A DNA stretch of 53,268 bases from Escherichia phage Ecp_YSF, in sequence record OR327751.1; one strand, written 5' to 3'. This document shows, in pieces, positions 1-51,676 of this stretch. Under the pieces are notes generated by a model. That model worked only from the letters and a program-made list of their open reading frames with translations. It was not told where the DNA came from and searched no databases. The position numbers were made by a program, and so were the translations under genes. How positions within the stretch are numbered: position 1 is the first letter of the stretch; each line of letters opens with the position of its first letter.

Positions 1-141
1 AAGTTCAGGCTTTCGTTTGGGTTACTCCTCATCCCGAAGTTAGCTGGATTCAAAATCCAGACTATGTTCCTATACACATGAAATATGCAAGTCGAGGGTT
101 CTTAATGTTCAAACATGATGCGAGCATTGAGCGGGTTTATA
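1..141. repeat. Left copy of direct terminal repeat; identical to 53128-53268
   Basis: Exact 141-nt identity with the last 141 nt of the window; repeat may extend beyond the window edge. Contains 7-bp hairpin CTGGATT-caa-AATCCAG at 44-60. Confidence 0.9.
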
Positions 142-35382: not shown

Positions 35383-36482
35383 TGGCTTACACTACCTTTT
35401 CACAAACCAAGAATAACCAACTATTAGAACCAATGTTCTTTGGTCAGAACGTTAACGTTGCTCGATATGACCAACAGAAGTACAGCATCTTCGAGAAGTT
35501 AATCGAGAAGCAGTTATCTTTCTTTTGGCGACCTGAGGAGGTTGATGTTAGCCAGGACCGAATTGACTATGCTGGTCTTCCTGAGTGTGAGAAACACATT
35601 TTCACCAGCAATTTACGATACCAAATCCTGCTTGATTCCATTCAGGGGCGTGGACCAACTACAGTTTTGCTACCAATTGTGAGCATTCCTGAGCTTGAAA
35701 CTTGGATTGAAACTTGGTCATTCTCAGAGACAATTCATTCTCGTTCTTACACGCATATTATTCGTAATATCGTGACAGACCCAAGCGTAATTTTCGATGA
35801 AATTGTGGAGAATGAGCATATTAAAATGCGTGCAATTGGCATCTCCCAATATTATGACGAGCTTCAACACCTAACTTCCATGTGGCATCTGCATGAAGAC
35901 AAAGTTTCTCTTCGTGAGCTTAAGAAGAAGCTGTATTTATGCCTCATGTCTATCAATGCATTGGAAGCAATCCGCTTTTATGTCAGCTTTGCTTGCTCAT
36001 TTGCCTTCGCTGAACGCAAGTTAATGGAAGGAAATGCCAAGATTATTCGCTTAATTGCTCGTGATGAAGCACTCCATTTGACTGGAACTCAACACATGCT
36101 GAACCTTCTTGCAAGCGGTGTTGATGACCCAGAAATGGCCGAAATTGCTAAAGAATGCCGCCAAGAATGCCAAGAAATGTTCGAAAATGTGGCCCAACAA
36201 GAGAAAGATTGGGCTGATTATTTGTTCAAAGATGGCTCAATGATTGGCTTAAATAAGCAAATTCTGTGCGGATATGTGGAATATATCACGAATATTCGTA
36301 TGCAAGCAGTTGGATTGGATGCTCCATTCAAAGGTGCTACTAACCCGATTCCTTGGATTAACGCATGGTTGAATTCGGATGCTGTACAAGTCGCTCCACA
36401 AGAAACGGAGATTAGTTCGTACCTTGTCGGGCAGATTGATTCCGAAGTGGACACCAATGCTCTTGGCGGATTTGAGCTTTAA
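35382..36482 (+). CDS. nrdB: Ribonucleotide reductase class Ia small (beta) subunit
   Basis: Translation is colinear with E. coli NrdB as recalled from memory, not computed ([11 protein letters not shown]...; EEVDVS; [16 protein letters not shown]; [11 protein letters not shown]). Confidence 0.9.
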
Positions 36483-36769
36483 CGATTATATGCGAGAAGA
36501 GATTCGATGCGTTAGCGTCGTTTCTCTTTGAGCTAGAATAAGACAAGTAAATTAAATATTTATTTATTCCCAATATTGCTACAATATTAAGAGTAATATT
36601 AGGAATGCGTAAAGTTAAAACCAAATGGTACATGGTCGGTCAACTGTACCTAGACATAGACTTGTTCACAATCGGTCAGCTGTATCTAGCCGGAATTTGT
36701 TCGAACAGAAGTCCGACTATGTTATAAAAATTTTTATATAATTTTTTTTAATTTAAATATTGTTACGGA

Positions 36770-36847
36770 ATTAATGAGACTCAAATTGTTTCAATATTAA
36801 TGAGACTAGAATTGTAACGATATTGACGAGACTAGAATTGTGGCAAT
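36770..36847 (+). repeat. Three tandem imperfect 26-bp repeats
   Basis: ATTAATGAGACTCAAATTGTTTCAAT / ATTAATGAGACTAGAATTGTAACGAT / ATTGACGAGACTAGAATTGTGGCAAT; core resembles T7 promoter TAATACGACTCACTATAG. Confidence 0.8.
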
Positions 36848-36852
36848 ATTAT
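36823..36852 (+). promoter_or_regulatory. Sigma70-like promoter candidate upstream of RNAP gene
   Basis: TTGACG, 18 nt, TATTAT (TATAAT also present at 36850-36855); AT-rich tract upstream at 36700-36770. Confidence 0.4.
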
Positions 36853-37030
36853 AATTTTTATTTTGGGCCAGCGGGGGAGGGGAAGCCCAACGTCCTATCG
36901 GACTTAAATACGGTCCCTACTCCAACTTTTTCCTACAGCCTATCGGCTTTCAAACAACACCAAGTTAGGCGCTTCGCTTATGGGTCAAGGTCAAAGTCTC
37001 CGTGCTGTTGTAACAATGGCACAGGTTTGT

Positions 37031-37052
37031 GATATTAGTTGGTTGTGAATTG
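37031..37052 (+). promoter_or_regulatory. Conserved phage motif copy a (candidate phage-RNAP promoter)
   Basis: GATATTAGTTGGTTGTGAATTG; matches consensus CTGAAACATTAGTTGGATGTGAA; about 65 nt upstream of RNAP start. Confidence 0.4.
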
Positions 37053-37115
37053 TGTAATGGCTACGCTATTATAATCCGTTTCAGTTAAATCATACACAAT
37101 CTTGGAGACTTACAA

Positions 37116-39056
37116 ATGATTACTATCACCACTCAAACTATCAAATCTGTTGTTCCTGCTATCACTGCTCTGGTATACCGTGCCAAAGAGAAGCAGAACT
37201 ATATGCAGCCTCAGACTTGTGCTATTGCTGCCCTAGCCATATTCAAGATGATGACGTCTTTCACTCGTGATGACGTTGTTCCTGCCATTGCGATGGTTGA
37301 GCTGGCTTCTGCTTCTATTGCTGATGCCAACCGCTACAACAACGATTTGAAAGCAATGCACTATGTTGACCCAGCTATCAACCTCATTGGTTTGGCTAAG
37401 CACTTTGGCTTCATCACCATGAACGAAGACAAGTCATTCCAGCAAACTGACACATGGGTTGAACTGGTTACAACCAAAGACACAGCAGTGCCATTCACTG
37501 AGCGTGTTACATCTGAATCTCGTCGCAAGCCTTTCGTTAAAGGTGGCAAAGTTAAGCCATCCAAAACTCTGAAAGCTGCAATCGAATTCCTGCAAGATAC
37601 TGAGTACCATGTGGAGACTGAGATGGTTCGCATCATCCAGTCCATGCTTGAGCAACGTACTTATGGTGGCTTGCAGATGCCAGAAGCAATCCAAACTGAA
37701 CTCCATGTTTGGAACAATGCTGTAGCAATGATGAATCAGGATAAGCTGTATTCTGACTACTTTGCTGATAACCGTGGTCGTCTGTATCATGTAGCATGTG
37801 CTGGTCCTAACCCACAATCCTCTGACTTTGCTCGTTGCTTGTATTCTCACAATGTTGAGAACATCGTTAAGAAGTTTAACGAAGATGGTTCTACTACCAT
37901 TGCATACAACATGTTCATGGCAGAGCTGGAAGATATTTCCGGTGGTGAATGGTGCAGTGCTAAGCGTTTAACTTATGTTGCTCAGAATCCAGCTGGTTCA
38001 CTTGCTCGCATGATGAACATGCCTAAAGCTGAGCGTCCTTCTAAGCCATTCACTTATGTTCGTCTGGCTCTGGATTGGTTCAAGTTTGAGACTACAGGTG
38101 AATGCGATTCTCGTGTAGGCTTTGGCTTAGATGCTAAATGTTCTGGTACTCAATATCTGGCATTCATTGCTGGTAACATGGAAATGGCTCGTGCAACAGG
38201 TCTGGTTGATTCTGAGACTAAAGCATCTGACCCATACCAGTTGAGTCTTCGTGAACTGTTGAAGCTGCTGGACAAGTCTTCAATGAAACCATCTCCTGAA
38301 ATTATGGATGAATTCTTGAATCCGAAAGCTGGTCGTAAGTTTATCAAAACTCCATACATGGCTATCCAATATGGTGGTGGTAAAGCTGCACTAACTGGTT
38401 CTTCTGACTTTATCTCCTACATGACAGAAGCTCTCCAGATTCCTATGGAGAAAGCTGAGGCATTTGCTGAACTGTGTGTAGAAGCAATCCATAACGCATT
38501 GGGTGCTAAGATTAACATGTTCATTGAGAAAGCTGCTGATGCTGCATACAACCGTTGTGTTGAACTTGGTAAAGAGTACATCACATACCGTCACACTGAT
38601 GGTCAGGTTGTAATGAAGCCTTGCTTCCCATCTCGTGAAATCTGTGAGGCATTCAGCATTCGTGTTGACTCCCAAACTCGTGTTATCTTTGGTCAGATTC
38701 AGGAGAATAAGCCTTGGACCATTCGTGAATCCAATCCAACTAAAGAAGAATTCAAGCGTACTTTCGTTGTTAACTACATTCAAGGTATTGACGCACTGGT
38801 TGCTCGTACTGTTGCAGTTAAAGCTAAAGAAGCTGGTCTTCGTGGCTTTACTTCAATTCACGATTGTTTCCGTTGCTGCTTAGCTGATGCTCCACGTATG
38901 ATGGAAGTTATTCGTGCAGCATATGTTGAAATCTTCGTAACCAACAATCAATTCGAGAATCTGTCTAAGCAACTCGGTGGCATTCAGATGTATCATGAGA
39001 ACATCGTAACCGAAGAGCTTCTGATGAGCGAACACGCTTACTACTTCTGTCAATAA
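37116..39056 (+). CDS. Single-subunit DNA-dependent RNA polymerase (T7-like catalytic core, compact 646 aa)
   Basis: Motif A-like LDAKCSGTQYLAF; motif B-like RKFIKTPYMAIQYGGGKA; motif C-like FTSIHDCFRC; RBS GGAGAC before ATG. Confidence 0.75.
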   Translation: MITITTQTIKSVVPAITALVYRAKEKQNYMQPQTCAIAALAIFKMMTSFTRDDVVPAIAMVELASASIADANRYNNDLKAMHYVDPAINLIGLAKHFGFITMNEDKSFQQTDTWVELVTTKDTAVPFTERVTSESRRKPFVKGGKVKPSKTLKAAIEFLQDTEYHVETEMVRIIQSMLEQRTYGGLQMPEAIQTELHVWNNAVAMMNQDKLYSDYFADNRGRLYHVACAGPNPQSSDFARCLYSHNVENIVKKFNEDGSTTIAYNMFMAELEDISGGEWCSAKRLTYVAQNPAGSLARMMNMPKAERPSKPFTYVRLALDWFKFETTGECDSRVGFGLDAKCSGTQYLAFIAGNMEMARATGLVDSETKASDPYQLSLRELLKLLDKSSMKPSPEIMDEFLNPKAGRKFIKTPYMAIQYGGGKAALTGSSDFISYMTEALQIPMEKAEAFAELCVEAIHNALGAKINMFIEKAADAAYNRCVELGKEYITYRHTDGQVVMKPCFPSREICEAFSIRVDSQTRVIFGQIQENKPWTIRESNPTKEEFKRTFVVNYIQGIDALVARTVAVKAKEAGLRGFTSIHDCFRCCLADAPRMMEVIRAAYVEIFVTNNQFENLSKQLGGIQMYHENIVTEELLMSEHAYYFCQ

Positions 39057-39073
39057 CATTAATTGGGTCAAGG

Positions 39074-39298
39074 ATGACCACAAACTTGGAGACTACAATG
39101 AATACCATGCAAATCAATCAAATCGAAAACTGTTTCAATCCTCATCACACCTGTGACATGAGTGATTTATCTCGTCCTACGGTGGAGGAGACTAAAGACT
39201 TCTTAGAATTGTTATCAGAATATAAGCAAGAGTCGCATGTATTATTGCACGCATTCTTGCATAATTCTGGATTCTTTGATACAGAAATACCGTTCTGA
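39074..39298 (+). CDS. Hypothetical small acidic protein (74 aa)
   Basis: ATG-initiated ORF after RNAP; in-frame ATG at 39098 with GGAG upstream is an alternative. Confidence 0.4.
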   Translation: MTTNLETTMNTMQINQIENCFNPHHTCDMSDLSRPTVEETKDFLELLSEYKQESHVLLHAFLHNSGFFDTEIPF

Positions 39299-39303
39299 TA
39301 CTT

Positions 39304-39328
39304 GGGAGCTTCGGCTCCCTATTTTTGT
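39304..39328 (+). terminator. Rho-independent terminator
   Basis: GGGAGC-ttcg-GCTCCC followed by TATTTTTGTTCT. Confidence 0.75.
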
Positions 39329-39367
39329 TCTAATTAATCTTAGAGCTGGCTTCAATATTGTAGCCAG

Positions 39368-39392
39368 TTGTAACATTAGTTGGATGTGAAGT
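39368..39392 (+). promoter_or_regulatory. Conserved phage motif copy b
   Basis: TGTAACATTAGTTGGATGTGAAGTA. Confidence 0.4.
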
Positions 39393-39599
39393 AACAGAAT
39401 ACGGAGAAGTATTCCGCATGTCATGTTGAAATCATTCTAGAAACATTTCAGCATGTCAACTAAACATACAGCGTTGTAATGATGTGGCAATCATTGAACT
39501 CCCTGTCTTTGGCCGGACAAAGTTCCAGCAACCATGTGTGAAGTAGGAATATCATTCGAAACTGTTCTTCAAATAAACATGACTTATCCCTAAAGAAGC

Positions 39600-40320
39600 T
39601 GGGACAGCTCATGTAGTACCAGCATGTTCAATTGTGACAATATTGCTCCATCTCCTATTATAAAGGCCCACCCACAAGCCGGGAGATAACTTTGGTAATA
39701 TTGGAACTTTTGGACATGCTTCTTTCTTTCAATCAGAATTCGAAAGAAGAGAAGAGTCGGAGCAAAGCCGCGAAACTAATCCCGTAGCCCGCCCCGATTT
39801 TGAGCAACAAATATTGTGACAATTTTGTCGCAGTATGGCATGTAAATATTGCTACAAATTGGCATGTTGGAATGTGGCAGAATTGTTAGAGGACTAATCC
39901 CCTCGAAGATACAATCGTCTACCAATCTGGCATGTTATTTTTGTAACAGTATTTGTGCCAATTTCGCATGTATTAGCTGTATCAGTATTAACCCAATATT
40001 CTTGCAACCCGCATGAATACTGGCTTCCAGCCAAGCGAAGGCTTTATCATCGCATGTAAATATTGTGACAATATTGGGATAAAACCCTTTATTTAATTAG
40101 TTTTATTATGCTGTACATGGTCGGTTTTCCGTACCTGCTTGCTCCAATCTTAATGTGCCAAATACGTTAAGTATGGGAGTAAACCTGTAATTAATGGTGC
40201 ATGTTTAATTGTGACAAAATTCGTCTATTTGGCAGATGAATTAGTTGCAATTAAGCATGTTCATTTATCATTAGTTGCATGTGAATAAGACCAAATCTCT
40301 GTAAATTCTGCCGAAATTGT
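39600..40320. repeat. Cluster of operator-like palindromes (AATATTGTGACAATATT family), each preceded by GCATGT
   Basis: Copies near 39616, 39810, 39836, 39925, 40050 (perfect 17-bp palindrome at about 40063-40079), 40197; related AATATTGCTACAATATT at about 36567. Confidence 0.7.
40265..40290 (+). promoter_or_regulatory. Conserved phage motif copy c
   Basis: TTATCATTAGTTGCATGTGAATAAGA. Confidence 0.4.
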
Positions 40321-40484
40321 GTGACAGATTTTAGAGAGATTATGTCTCCAAGCTAATCATTGCAGTTTTTCGACACTTTGTGTGTCACATATAGCCTGTG
40401 AAAAACGTGTGGTATATTGCTGGATTGCGACGCGCCCACCAGACTAGGAAGTCACTGACGGCGGCACACACAGGAATACTATAT

Positions 40485-40555
40485 AACTCCCTACAACTTT
40501 AAGGTGGATTGAGGTAAGACAAGACCTCCACAATCGTTCTGTAGGGAGTTCTTTT
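40485..40555 (+). promoter_or_regulatory. Long-range stem enclosing an inner hairpin, then U-tract, 8 nt before the RBS of the first small gene
   Basis: AACTCCCTACA (40485-40495) pairs with TGTAGGGAGTT (40540-40550); inner GTGGA/GAGG...CCTC/CAC; followed by CTTTT and AGGAG-ATG. Confidence 0.45.
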
Positions 40556-40571
40556 AACTCAGGAGAATAAA

Positions 40572-40790
40572 ATGACTCGTTTTAAAGATTTGGTAGATGG
40601 TGCAATCTTCTTTACGCGTGGTGGGGAACATCTGCAAAAGGTTTTGGAAGATGACATTAATGTAAATGCTGTATTCGTTGGTGATTCTAACATTGGTGTT
40701 TTATTAAATGACAATGAAAGGACTTTTACCGAGGAGGAGTTTAAAGAAATCTCAGCCTCTGATTTAGTTCAAGAGCCAATTGAAGTTTAA
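40572..40790 (+). CDS. Small acidic protein (72 aa), first gene after control region
   Basis: Strong RBS AGGAG; about 16 Asp/Glu versus about 7 basic residues. Confidence 0.55.
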   Translation: MTRFKDLVDGAIFFTRGGEHLQKVLEDDINVNAVFVGDSNIGVLLNDNERTFTEEEFKEISASDLVQEPIEV

Positions 40791-50685: not shown

Positions 50686-50726
50686 GTTGCCGATGGCAAA
50701 CTTGAGAGACTAAGCTAAATCGATCT

Positions 50727-50757
50727 GGCATGCACTGGGAGATCTGCCAGTGCTGCC
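50727..50757 (+). other. Stable hairpin downstream of last small gene
   Basis: GGCA-t-GCACTGG (8-nt loop) CCAGTGC-t-GCC; no U-tract. Confidence 0.35.
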
Positions 50758-51583
50758 TTGAATCCCATTCCAGAGTGAGTGGGCTTCAATGAGCATTCTT
50801 GTGATTAGAGTTGGGAGGTAGGCCGATGCCCAAGCTCGTGGCCCAGACAAGAGTGTTCATTGAAGTAGTTTTCTGAGTCTTACGACGGGCCTAAACTGCC
50901 TGGAGTTATTGCGACTGTTTTATTCATTTAAAATAAATGCAAATGATTCTGAAATGCGAGTTGCGGCTTAATTAAATTTAAGTCCTCTCCGTGGTCTTCC
51001 AATCCCACGTAACCAAATTTGGCGCATTGTGGCTTCGAGATGTGATTAATAAATCGGAGCAATAATTAATTTGTATTCTGCGATGCAAAGCAGGCTTAAG
51101 TCCTCCAGTGCGCGTGGGGATGTGACAGAGTACAAACTTAATTATGCAGTTGGATATTTCTAGAGGACGGACGAGCACACTGGAATGTCTTCAATTGGTT
51201 TAGTGTGAGAAGCTATGCCAATTTGAAACGTAACTCCTTGGGGAAGTGCTCCTCTGGATTTCCCTCCACACAGGAATCTCAAGCCTGTGGCAGCGACTTC
51301 GAAGCTGCACTGCGTAACCTAATTCACCCTAAAGTGAGTTGCCCTGAGCATGGAAATAAACTGCTCTAACCGATGGTATCTACAAAGGTAGATTAAATCA
51401 GGTTGCCTGTTGGTACTTGGGTTCAACACCTGCTTGCACTCGCAAAGTAGTGCCTCGTACCTGAGATGAAGTGAGTCGGGACCATCAATCCCACGTTATG
51501 TCAAAACACAGTAGGCGACTCACAGATTCTACAAGCCTCGCAGTTCGGGAAAACCTGCGTTATCAAAACCCCCCCCTCAATTT

Positions 51584-51676
51584 GGACGAGTAGCTCAGAA
51601 GGTCTGCTCCAGAGCTTAGTCAGGTAGAGCAATCTGTTCGACAGATGTGTCGTTGGTTCGAATCCAACCTCGTCCA
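51584..51676 (+). tRNA. tRNA-like gene, possibly type II (Leu-CAG-like), with atypical D region; CCA encoded at 51677-51679
   Basis: Acceptor GGACGAG / CTCGTCC; T-arm GTTGG-TTCGAAT-CCAAC; candidate anticodon arm 51614-51630 with loop GTCAGGT; variable-arm hairpin ATCTG-TTCGA-CAGAT; D region does not fold canonically by hand. Confidence 0.45.

What the first reader, a model, noticed from the sequence alone, without database searches (positions are those of the whole stretch)
39300..40571. 1.27-kb non-coding region after the RNAP operon packed with operator-like palindromes and GCATGT boxes
At least six copies of a unit GCATGT followed by a 17-bp palindrome of the AATATTGTGACAATATT family occur between 39600 and 40320, with a related AATATTGCTACAATATT near 36567. 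Two copies of the candidate phage-promoter motif also lie here. Such a density of dyad-symmetric sites in the longest ORF-free stretch of the genome suggests an early control region, a replication origin with iterons, or both.
Basis: seen in the sequence. Interest (0 to 1): 0.55.

Follow-up and report, generated by a model that had tools for sequence, protein, structure and literature searches.

The report
Conserved structured non-coding region, Chaseviridae phage
The 1.27-kb gene-free stretch after the phage RNA polymerase gene is real, is better conserved than the genes beside it, straddles the edge of the genome's long terminal repeat, and its GCATGT/palindrome repeats behave mainly as arms of a conserved, extensively folded rightward transcript rather than as classical operators or origin iterons.

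Summary
GCATGT occurs 11 times on the + strand in 39300-40571 (0.33 expected, P~1e-13). The AATATTGTNACAATATT box gives 10 hits against 0.67 expected. Both promoter-like motifs are present, and this is the longest ORF-free stretch.

The window is a Carltongylesvirus-like Chaseviridae genome. By homology to Y2, PM1, Mangalitsa and 4HA13, its direct terminal repeat (DTR) is about 36901-39758. The region therefore spans the DTR's right boundary.

The block 39340-40395 is conserved across several genera (five named), more than the flanking small ORFs. Every relative keeps 9-15 + strand GCATGT copies and 0-1 on the - strand.

Several domains show conserved + strand base pairing with compensatory changes. 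In the three tested with controls, 92-100% of cells pair against 16-54% with slid partners, and 0/500 shuffles reach the observed pairing or covariation score. Three domains are closed by GCAUGU:GCAUGU duplexes. The 1-kb RNA folds with z = -10.3; a coding control gives -1.5.

Palindromic symmetry is not conserved, spacing is irregular, sigma-70-like sites are not enriched, and no Rep or HTH domain was found in the 10 proteins scanned.

Best reading: a transcribed, structured leader or ncRNA with promoters. DNA-level roles (packaging, T7-type origin) are not excluded. There is no Rfam family and I found no literature description.

The parts
36572..36588 (.). Isolated box AATATTGCTACAATATT in the left non-coding region (upstream of the DTR)
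   Evidence: 1 mismatch; conserved as AAATATTG(C/T)NACAATATT in relatives
36756..36850 (+). Left array: four boxes at an exact 26-bp period (36756, 36782, 36808, 36834). The first three are each followed by (A/C)GAGACT. The array lies about 50 bp outside the DTR left boundary.
   Evidence: similar arrays in L027, Faunus, L040 and PM1
36823..36852 (+). Sigma-70-like site TTGACG-18-TATTAT overlapping the last left box, upstream of the RNAP gene
   Evidence: 10/12 match; conserved TATAAT/T-run in relatives
36901..39758 (.). Inferred direct terminal repeat (DTR) holding the RNAP gene and a 74-aa ORF. Left boundary CCTATCG|GACTTAAATACGG, right boundary GAAGAGTC|GGAGCAAAG, each good to about +/-5 nt.
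   Evidence: homology to the record ends of Y2 and PM1, and to the PhageTerm repeats of Mangalitsa and 4HA13
37034..37049 (+). Promoter-like motif ATTAGTTGGTTGTGAA upstream of the RNAP gene
39304..39329 (+). Intrinsic terminator-like hairpin GGGAGCTTCGGCTCCC plus T-run, after the 74-aa ORF
   Evidence: annotated as a terminator in SA91KD
39375..39390 (+). Promoter-like motif ATTAGTTGGATGTGAA (GJ1-type 'phage promoter'). This is the presumed start of the structured transcript, at about 39391 if aligned by eye on the T7/SP6 promoter layout.
   Evidence: invariant block CATTAGTTGGATGTGAAGTAACAGAA across 14 genomes
39412..39560 (+). Domain I: a multi-helix structure. GCAUGU(39416) pairs with GCAUGU(39451), and it includes the two-tier hairpin 39496-39526.
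   Evidence: A7: 35 pairs, 16 compensatory, 92% paired against 33-37% slid, 0/500 shuffles; A3: 9 pairs, 5 compensatory, 100% paired
39619..39722 (+). Inverted pair of units (GCATGT 39622 on the + strand, ACATGC 39714) bracketing domain II. Domain II is CUCCU..GGC-loop-GCC..GGGAG at 39652-39685. The stretch contains the sigma-70-like site GTGACA-16-TATTAT (39634-39661).
   Evidence: I2; invariant TCCTATTATAAAGGCCC..CACAAGCCGGG; GGC/GCC becomes GCC/GGC in the Proteus phage
39810..39826 (.). First box outside the DTR right boundary (AATATTGTGACAATTTT), about 52 bp from the boundary
39838..39843 (+). GCATGT of unit C. Its predicted partner is the invariant AUGUGCCA at 40153-40160, but no covariation is available for this pairing.
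39861..39937 (+). Domain III: GCAUGU(39862):GCAUGU(39930) closing helix, UGUGRC box paired to RYCA, inner helix AUUGU/ACAAU and an apical hairpin
   Evidence: A5: 22 pairs, 9 compensatory, 95% paired against 26-43% slid, 0/500 shuffles for pairing and covariation score
39966..40075 (+). Units F, G (GCATGA 40011) and H (GCATGT 40052 plus the perfect palindrome 40059-40075). TTGTGACAATATTGGGA is conserved; its left half is not.
40085..40135 (+). AT/T-rich tract followed by the hairpin GUACAUGGUCGG-UUUU-CCGUAC. A paralogous copy lies at 36629-36650 in the left non-coding region.
40199..40260 (+). Domain IV: GCAUGU(40199):GCAUGU(40255) closing a hairpin of about 19 bp. One arm is the box AAUUGUGACAAAAUU.
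   Evidence: 10 covarying pairs; A6: 15 pairs, 6 compensatory; G.U to Watson-Crick switches
40270..40285 (+). Second promoter-like motif ATTAGTTGCATGTGAA
40288..40347 (+). Domain V: a long hairpin (about 20-25 bp) followed by the near-invariant CUCCAA. It resembles an RNase III site or a 5' stabiliser.
   Evidence: I5; each of 8 genomes has a hairpin of different sequence, z -3.6 to -6.5; 10 covarying pairs
40487..40548 (+). 5'-UTR stem CUCCCUACA...UGUAGGGAG just upstream of the Shine-Dalgarno sequence and start of the first early gene (40572)
   Evidence: read

Best explanation
The region is a conserved cis-acting, non-coding module of Chaseviridae. It sits between the RNAP gene and the early genes and spans the right boundary of the long terminal repeat. 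It is most likely transcribed rightwards, from the phage-type promoter motif at 39375, from a sigma-70-like promoter at 39634-39661, and by read-through. The product would be a leader or ncRNA of about 0.9-1.2 kb that folds into at least five domains. The GCATGT hexamers and TTGTGRCA boxes are largely the strands of these helices. GCAUGU is self-complementary on the + strand only (a CAUG core plus two G.U ends), and pairs of hexamers close domains I, III and IV. A second promoter motif (40270) followed by a long hairpin (40288-40347) precedes the first early gene. I infer that the folded RNA controls processing, stability or timing of early expression, or is itself an abundant functional RNA. 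Shown here: motif enrichment, conservation, strand polarity, covarying helices and the position relative to the DTR. Inferred: that the folded strand is RNA, the transcript start points, and the function.
For: Enrichment and polarity: 11 + strand GCATGT against 0.33 expected, and 9-15 + strand against 0-1 - strand copies in every relative, including the Proteus phage that has almost no BLAST similarity. Conservation: the block 39340-40395 scores 0.54-0.83 identity to the window per 50 nt. The flanking 74-aa ORF scores about 0.3 and the first early gene 0.44-0.61. No conserved ORF exists; the longest ranges from 23 to 95 aa and varies between genomes. Structure: A7 has 35 pairs with 16 compensatory, 92% paired against 33-37% slid. 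A5 has 22 pairs with 9 compensatory, 95% against 26-43%. A3 has 9 pairs with 5 compensatory, 100% against 16-54%. In all three, 0/500 shuffles reach the observed pairing or covariation score. Hairpin V is present with different sequence in 8 genomes. Domain IV covaries, with G.U to Watson-Crick switches. GCAUGU:GCAUGU pairs at 39416:39451, 39862:39930 and 40199:40255. Folding: z = -10.3 for the + strand, -6.2 for the - strand and -1.5 for an RNAP coding control. The + strand folds 31-87 kcal/mol better in 13 of 13 genomes. Context: the terminator lies upstream, the promoter-like motifs have 7 copies that are all intergenic and on the + strand, and all genes are on the + strand.
Against: There are no transcript data. 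GCATGT and TTGTGACA are far more invariant than pairing alone requires, which points to sequence-specific recognition by a protein or by RNAP, on DNA or on RNA. Invariant pairs cannot be tested by covariation. In the other subfamily (Aeromonas phage ZPAH14) the equivalent region carries a polar repeat, GTATGAGAC, that is not self-complementary. The left array (36756-36850) lies upstream of its candidate promoter with a strict 26-bp period, which looks like DNA-level binding. Palindrome-rich DNA folds well on either strand (- strand z = -6.2). Symmetric protein sites can mimic covariation, and my + strand G.U count is partly circular. Several long-range helices in the global model have no covariation.
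Confidence: 0.5

Rival explanations
1. DNA-level binding-site array. A conserved sequence-specific protein (phage small terminase or another phage protein, or a host factor) binds the bipartite GCATGT-N4/5-TTGTGRCA sites and the boxes. It builds a nucleoprotein complex that marks the DTR boundaries for concatemer cutting and repeat duplication, or that represses or activates the early promoters.
For: The motifs are near-invariant across genera. Boxes lie about 45-60 bp outside both DTR boundaries in the window, PM1, 4HA13 and Y2. This geometry recalls lambda cosB-cosN and T7 SRR-TR-SRL (from memory). The left array has an exact 26-bp period and overlaps a sigma-70-like site. The DTR boundary also falls inside the equivalent region in the other subfamily. 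AATATT occurs at 16.6 and 6.3 per kb against 0.52 per kb background.
Against: Dyad symmetry is not conserved. The right array has irregular spacing and strict single-strand polarity. No DNA-binding domain was found in the 10 proteins scanned; the remaining early ORFs were not scanned. The DTR boundaries carry their own, different motif (TATCGGAC-like). This reading does not explain the compensatory changes with G.U pairs.
Confidence: 0.2
2. T7-type replication origin. Transcripts made by the phage RNAP from the two promoter motifs are used as primers near the AT-rich tract (40085-40115). The T7-like primase-helicase then loads on the displaced strand, and no initiator protein is needed.
For: The position matches the T7 primary origin, which is non-coding DNA with two phage promoters directly downstream of the RNAP gene (established T7 knowledge, from memory). 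The phage has a T7-like primase/helicase, DNA polymerase and SSB. Two promoter-like motifs and an AT-rich tract are conserved as such in all genera. A structured pre-primer RNA is known from ColE1 RNA II.
Against: The AT-rich tract is about 700 nt from the first motif and upstream of the second. GC skew shows no switch. Nothing in the sequence requires an origin, and a T7-type origin does not need 1 kb of conserved structure.
Confidence: 0.15
3. Polar signals read by the phage RNA polymerase itself. The boxes would be SP6-like promoters (AT-rich, GTGACA, ATATT, then G), or the GCATGT hexamers would be class-II-like pause or termination signals, analogous to the T7 concatemer-junction pause site.
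For: All copies lie on the non-template strand for rightward transcription. The box resembles the SP6 promoter core GGTGACACTATAG (from memory). The repeat differs between subfamilies, GCATGT against GTATGAGAC, in step with RNAP divergence to about 34% identity. The repeats lie next to the DTR boundary, as the T7 junction pause site does.
Against: The units occur only in two clusters, not in front of middle or late genes. The conserved part is only 6-9 nt. There is no U-run after GCATGT. The spacing to a starting G is one nt off the SP6 layout.
Confidence: 0.1
4. Iteron-type origin bound by a phage Rep initiator.
For: There are repeated sites of about 17-25 bp plus an AT-rich tract. TGTGACAAATTG resembles the F-plasmid RepE iteron (from memory only).
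Against: Spacing is irregular at 24-147 bp. The copies are heterogeneous. No Rep_3 or other initiator domain was detected. A T7-like replisome does not need one.
Confidence: 0.04

Closest known systems
Phage T7 left-end control region (terminal repeat, SRL short repeats, phiOL, host promoters A1-A3, RNase III site R0.3, first early gene)
   Same: A non-coding region of about 1 kb between the terminal repeat and the first early gene. It has short repeats beside the repeat boundary (and a second set on the other side of the repeat), phage-RNAP promoter(s), a host-type promoter, and a stem-loop just before the first gene.
   Different: Here the repeat is 2.86 kb and contains the RNAP gene, and the boundary lies inside the non-coding region. 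The repeats are GCATGT/TTGTGRCA units that form covarying helices. Only one good sigma-70-like site is present. T7 has no comparable conserved 1-kb structure.
T7 primary origin of replication (phi1.1A/phi1.1B plus AT-rich region downstream of gene 1)
   Same: It lies directly downstream of the RNAP gene, has two phage promoter motifs and an AT-rich tract, and the phage has a T7-like replisome.
   Different: The distances between promoter and AT tract do not match, the region is ten times larger, and no replication data exist.
T5 injection-stop-signal region (repeat- and palindrome-rich non-coding DNA at the inner end of the long terminal repeat)
   Same: It is long non-coding DNA, rich in repeats and palindromes, at the inner edge of a long terminal repeat at the end presumed to enter first.
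   Different: There is no evidence of two-step DNA transfer in Chaseviridae, and there are no DnaA boxes. The resemblance is recalled from memory and was not tested.
Large structured phage-associated non-coding RNAs (ROOL, GOLLD) and phi29 pRNA
   Same: The sequence is hundreds of nt long, conserved in sequence and structure, phage-encoded, non-coding, and rich in self-complementary elements that could pair in cis or between molecules. The pRNA gene also lies at a genome end.
   Different: There is no Rfam match even at E<=5. No evidence exists that a discrete RNA is made. This sequence sits as a leader in front of genes.
Iteron origins and operator arrays (F RepE iterons, lambda/434 operators)
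   Same: It has repeated AT-rich sites, some of them dyad-symmetric, next to promoters.
   Different: Symmetry is not conserved, spacing is irregular, all copies are on one strand, and no cognate binding protein was found.

Membership tests
Iteron-type replication origin | Three or more near-identical direct repeats (about 17-22 bp) at regular, helically phased spacing | tested here: not met
   Start-to-start spacings are 24, 68, 36, 45 (to GCATGA), 41, 147 and 56 bp, and the copies are 63-94% alike
Iteron-type replication origin | A cognate Rep initiator gene in the element | tested here: inconclusive
   Pfam and PHROGs scans on 10 early or terminase-adjacent proteins, and a PDB sequence search on two proteins of about 245 aa, found no Rep or winged-helix domain. 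Not all small ORFs were scanned, and no fold search was done.
Iteron-type replication origin | An adjacent AT-rich unwinding element | tested here: inconclusive
   An AT/T-rich tract at 40085-40115 is conserved as AT-rich in all genera. Its unwinding function is untestable here.
Repressor operator array | Dyad-symmetric sites whose two half-sites are both conserved | tested here: not met
   In units B, H and I only TTGTGRCA and its 3' side is conserved. The left halves diverge in Y2, L032, L037 and L039.
Repressor operator array | Sites overlapping promoter -35/-10 elements | tested here: inconclusive
   This holds for only two sites (39634-39661 and 36823-36852). Sigma-70-like sites are not enriched, 12 against 13.6 expected.
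Conserved structured RNA (leader or ncRNA) | A secondary structure maintained by compensatory substitutions across relatives, above controls | tested here: met
   A3, A5 and A7: 92-100% paired against 16-54% for slid partners, with 5, 9 and 16 pairs changed on both sides. In all three, 0/500 shuffles reach the observed pairing or covariation score.
Conserved structured RNA (leader or ncRNA) | Folding energy well beyond composition-matched shuffles, and strand-specific | tested here: met
   z = -10.3 (+ strand) against -6.2 (- strand) and -1.5 (coding control). The + strand is more stable in 13 of 13 genomes.
Conserved structured RNA (leader or ncRNA) | The region is actually transcribed as that strand | not testable with these tools
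   This is only inferred from the promoter-like motifs, the co-directional genes and the upstream terminator. I found no transcriptome for this family that covers it.
Known Rfam family | A match to a curated covariance model | tested here: not met
   No hit at gathering thresholds on the whole window. Only two chance-level hits appear at E<=5 on 36400-40700.
T7-type transcription-primed origin | Phage-RNAP promoter(s) immediately followed by an AT-rich region with a primase site, downstream of the RNAP gene | tested here: inconclusive
   The synteny and components are present, but the first promoter motif is about 700 nt from the AT tract. Replication initiation is not testable here.
Terminase recognition (cos/pac-like) site | Repeated binding sites at a fixed short distance from the cut site, and an identifiable small terminase | tested here: inconclusive
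   Boxes lie about 45-60 bp outside both DTR boundaries in four phages. The proteins encoded upstream of TerL have no recognisable TerS domain.

The most novel reading that the evidence does not exclude
The region encodes a previously undescribed large (about 0.7-1 kb) structured phage RNA built from modules closed by the self-complementary hexamer GCAUGU. It would be made early by the phage's own RNA polymerase from the promoter next to the polymerase gene. It would act in its own right, for example as a scaffold or decoy for a host or phage factor, as a self-associating RNA (any GCAUGU can pair with any other, in cis or between molecules), or as the pre-primer for T7-style replication at the terminal-repeat edge. 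In that case it would be more than an mRNA leader.
Probability: 0.2. Interest if true: 0.8.

Novelty: new variant of a known kind. Interest (0 to 1): 0.6.

Why it matters
Chaseviridae are used as biocontrol and therapy phages, yet their transcription programme is unknown. The ICTV profile states that their RNAP promoters have not been identified. This region is the most constrained non-coding DNA of the genome. It sits where the RNAP gene, the early genes and the terminal-repeat boundary meet, and it is family-wide: the same architecture, with a different polar repeat, occurs in the other subfamily. Understanding it would probably explain how early expression starts and how the 2.9-kb repeats are delimited, and it may add a new large structured RNA family. 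It also gives concrete, testable elements: paired GCAUGU hexamers, five covarying domains and two promoter motifs.

Tried and rejected
- Array of host promoters. The sigma-70 scan shows no enrichment. By hand, only unit A has a -10 element at the right distance from its TTGTGACA.
- sigma-54, CRP, LexA, Tus/Ter, DnaA and IHF sites. These were compared from memory and their spacings or cores do not fit.
- tRNA or a known RNA family: none found.
- Hidden protein-coding genes. ORFs are short, differ between genomes and are annotated inconsistently.
- Origin by GC skew: no switch.
- A DNA-binding protein among 10 early or TerS-candidate proteins: nothing found.
- GCATGT as a degenerate copy of the promoter motif. 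The invariant part of that motif (ATTAGTTG) is absent from the units.
- T7-type primase sites (TTGTC on the - strand of the boxes): not conserved in variant boxes.
- IMG/VR scan for the bipartite unit. Single chance hits occur everywhere; two or more units appear in known Chaseviridae contigs (ST32, 4HA13) and in one unexamined 4.1-kb contig (L055).
- Literature. No description of the array turned up in the searches I ran or the papers I could read. The GJ1, Y2 and PM1 papers are not held.
- The tool's MAFFT alignment of hairpin V failed. Per-genome folding was used instead.
Full report
**What the window is.** The 1.27-kb query matches 78 phage records, and 45 of them cover at least 80% of it. 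[quoted passage not shown] Weaker matches come from Erwinia, Pectobacterium, Pantoea, Dickeya, Proteus and Aeromonas phages. Judged from the ORF list and from the annotation of the relative Mangalitsa, all genes lie on the + strand. The finding lies between a 646-aa single-subunit RNAP gene (37116-39056) with a 74-aa ORF (39074-39298) and the first small early gene (40572). The ICTV profile says these phages have long terminal repeats of about 3 kb and that their RNAP promoters 'have not yet been identified'.

- GCATGT occurs 11 times on the + strand and once on the - strand in 39300-40571. The expectation is 0.33 per strand, giving P about 1e-13.
- Eight GCATGT-N5/6-TGTNNCA units lie between 39622 and 40216.
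- The 17-bp box gives 10 hits at up to 3 mismatches against 0.67 expected. Four hits are in the region and five are in a second cluster at 36572-36850.
- The GJ1-type promoter motif ATTAGTTGSAYGTGAA has seven copies against 0.10 expected. All are on the + strand and intergenic, and two lie in the region.
- The region is the longest ORF-free stretch of the window.

The records of Y2 and PM1 carry both terminal repeats. Mangalitsa and 4HA13 have PhageTerm-annotated repeats. All four place the left end at ..CCTATCG|GACTTAAATACGGTCCC and the right repeat boundary at ..GAGTC|GGAGCAAAG, within about 5 nt of each other.
- In window coordinates the repeat is about 36901-39758. It contains the RNAP gene.
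- The finding therefore consists of the last roughly 460 nt of the repeat plus the first roughly 810 nt of unique DNA.
- PYps23T is an outlier. Its ligation-PCR ends fall exactly inside two copies of the promoter-like motif.
- Boxes lie about 45-60 bp outside both boundaries.
- The left cluster is a strict 26-bp array of four boxes; the first three are each followed by (A/C)GAGACT, and the last overlaps a sigma-70-like site.

**Conservation.** I aligned 14 genomes from several genera (five named: Carltongylesvirus, Sabourvirus, Suwonvirus, Loessnervirus and Myducvirus) and metagenomic relatives. Their RNAPs are 66-77% identical to the window's.
- The block 39340-40395 is more conserved than the small ORFs on either side. 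It scores 0.54-0.83 identity to the window per 50 nt, against about 0.3 for the 74-aa ORF and 0.44-0.61 for the first early gene.
- Every genome keeps 9-15 + strand GCATGT copies and 0-1 - strand copies downstream of the RNAP gene. This includes the Proteus phage, whose region is almost unalignable.
- ORFs in the block are short and inconsistent between genomes.
- What is conserved in the 'palindromes' is TTGTGRCA and its 3' flank, not the dyad.

- Sigma-70-like sites are not enriched (12 against 13.6 expected). The one good site is GTGACA-16-TATTAT at 39634-39661, inside an invariant block.
- GC skew never changes sign.
- The unit spacing is irregular.
- Ten early or terminase-adjacent proteins show no DNA-binding or Rep domain.
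- The replication genes are T7-like and need no initiator.

**Evidence for conserved single-strand structure.**
- Domain I (39412-39560) has 35 pairs, 16 with changes on both sides. It is 92% paired against 33-37% with slid partners.
- The hairpin at 39496-39526 has 9 pairs, 5 of them compensatory, and none is broken in 9 sequences.
- Domain III (39861-39937) has 22 pairs, 9 of them compensatory. It is 95% paired against 26-43% slid.
- In all three alignments, 0 of 500 shuffles reach the observed pairing or covariation score.
- Domain IV (40199-40260) is a hairpin of about 19 bp. One arm is the box AAUUGUGACAAAAUU. The other arm switches between G.U and Watson-Crick partners.
- Hairpin V (40288-40347) follows the second promoter motif. 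It exists in every genome tested with a different sequence, z -3.6 to -6.5.
- GCAUGU hexamers pair with each other at 39416:39451, 39862:39930 and 40199:40255. The hexamer at 39622 pairs with the lone - strand copy at 39714.
- GCAUGU is self-complementary only on the + strand, through a CAUG core plus two G.U ends. This offers an explanation for the strand polarity.
- The 996-nt + strand RNA folds with z = -10.3. The - strand gives -6.2 and an RNAP coding control gives -1.5. The + strand is more stable in all 13 genomes.
- No Rfam family matches.

**Limits.**
- No transcript data exist.
- The invariance of GCATGT and TTGTGACA exceeds what pairing needs, so a protein or the RNAP probably also reads them.
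- The left array looks like a DNA-level element.
- Several long-range helices in the global model lack covariation.
- My G.U count is partly circular.
- In Aeromonas phage ZPAH14 (the other subfamily, RNAP about 34% identical) the same architecture exists: a 1.04-kb gene-free region after the RNAP gene, a 3,373-bp repeat whose boundary falls inside it, and strong folding. Its polar repeat is GTATGAGAC (7 copies of its first six bases GTATGA on the + strand, 0 on the - strand), which is not self-complementary. The architecture is therefore family-wide, and polarity cannot rest on self-pairing alone.

**Verdict.** The feature is real and strongly selected, and I found no prior description of it. 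The best-supported reading is a transcribed, highly structured leader or ncRNA with embedded promoters at the junction of the terminal repeat and the early genes. DNA-level roles remain open: marking the repeat boundary or packaging, a T7-type origin, or signals read by the RNAP. The iteron and operator readings are disfavoured.

Noticed in passing
window 37034-37049 and 39375-39390; L002 1-20; L003 5980-6000: The experimentally mapped 2,339-bp terminal repeat of Yersinia phage PYps23T begins and ends exactly inside two copies of the promoter-like motif (..CATTAGTTGGA | CGTGAA..). Y2, PM1, Mangalitsa and 4HA13 instead place the boundaries about 140 nt further left and 370 nt further right. Either the ligation-PCR switched templates between the two motif copies, or ends or nicks really form at these motifs.
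   Followed up: partly
window 36901-39758: The RNA polymerase gene lies wholly inside the inferred terminal repeat, so each virion genome would carry it twice. The left-end copy would lack the upstream non-coding region (36483-36900) that holds the box array and the sigma-70-like site.
   Followed up: partly
window 37116-39056; L163 79-2616: The RNAP ORF here is only 646 aa (T7 RNAP is 883 aa, from memory). Records annotate it with different starts: 704 aa in Mangalitsa, and 'C-terminus' in SA91KD. The Nefertitivirinae homologue is 845 aa and aligns only from about residue 55-130 onward.
   Followed up: no
window 36629-36650 and 40114-40135: A 22-nt element, GTACATGGTCGGT(CAA/TTT)C(T/C)GTACC, occurs once in each non-coding region flanking the repeat. 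It is a small hairpin with a covarying outer stem in PM1 and Y2. Each copy lies about 40-45 nt after a box and an AT-rich spacer.
   Followed up: partly
L011 2770-3183 (Proteus phage PA_03): A tandem duplication of about 207 bp covers the segment with the invariant TCCTATTATAAAGCCCCACCCACAAGGCGGGAG block and one GCATGT unit.
   Followed up: no
window 40395-40486: A GC-richer insert of about 90 nt (GTGAAAAACGTGTGG...CACACAGGAATAC) is present in the window, SA91KD and PYps23T. It is absent from Mangalitsa, 4HA13, PM1 and Y2, and it is the only poorly conserved part of the region.
   Followed up: no
L163 3130-3470 (Aeromonas phage ZPAH14): The other subfamily has a polar repeat GTATGAGAC, often preceded by CTATGT or CATAGG. 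Its core TGAGAC resembles both TGTGAC of the boxes and the GAGACT that follows the first three boxes of the window's left array.
   Followed up: partly
whole window: TGAGAC is under-represented genome-wide: 13 matches against 28.7 +/- 5.9 expected on both strands.
   Followed up: no
window 43506, 44103, 48320, 50255: The other four promoter-like motif copies all lie in the early/middle region. None precedes the replication, structural or lysis genes, so late transcription must use read-through or an unrecognised signal.
   Followed up: no
window 50714-51646: This is the second-longest stretch without a + strand ORF of at least 60 aa (933 nt). It was not examined.
   Followed up: no
record PP952070.1: A record named 'Staphylococcus phage Pel53' (host S. 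hyicus) matches this E. coli-type Carltongylesvirus region at 88% identity over 87% of the query. The label or host is probably wrong, or the record is contaminated.
   Followed up: no
window 36860-36930: The left repeat boundary sits in a highly conserved element, GTCCTATCGGACTTAAATACGGTCCC, which contains the inverted repeat GGAC..GTCC. It is preceded by a GC-rich hairpin (GGGCC..GGGGAAGCCC). The right boundary carries only a degenerate TATCGGAC-like copy.
   Followed up: partly
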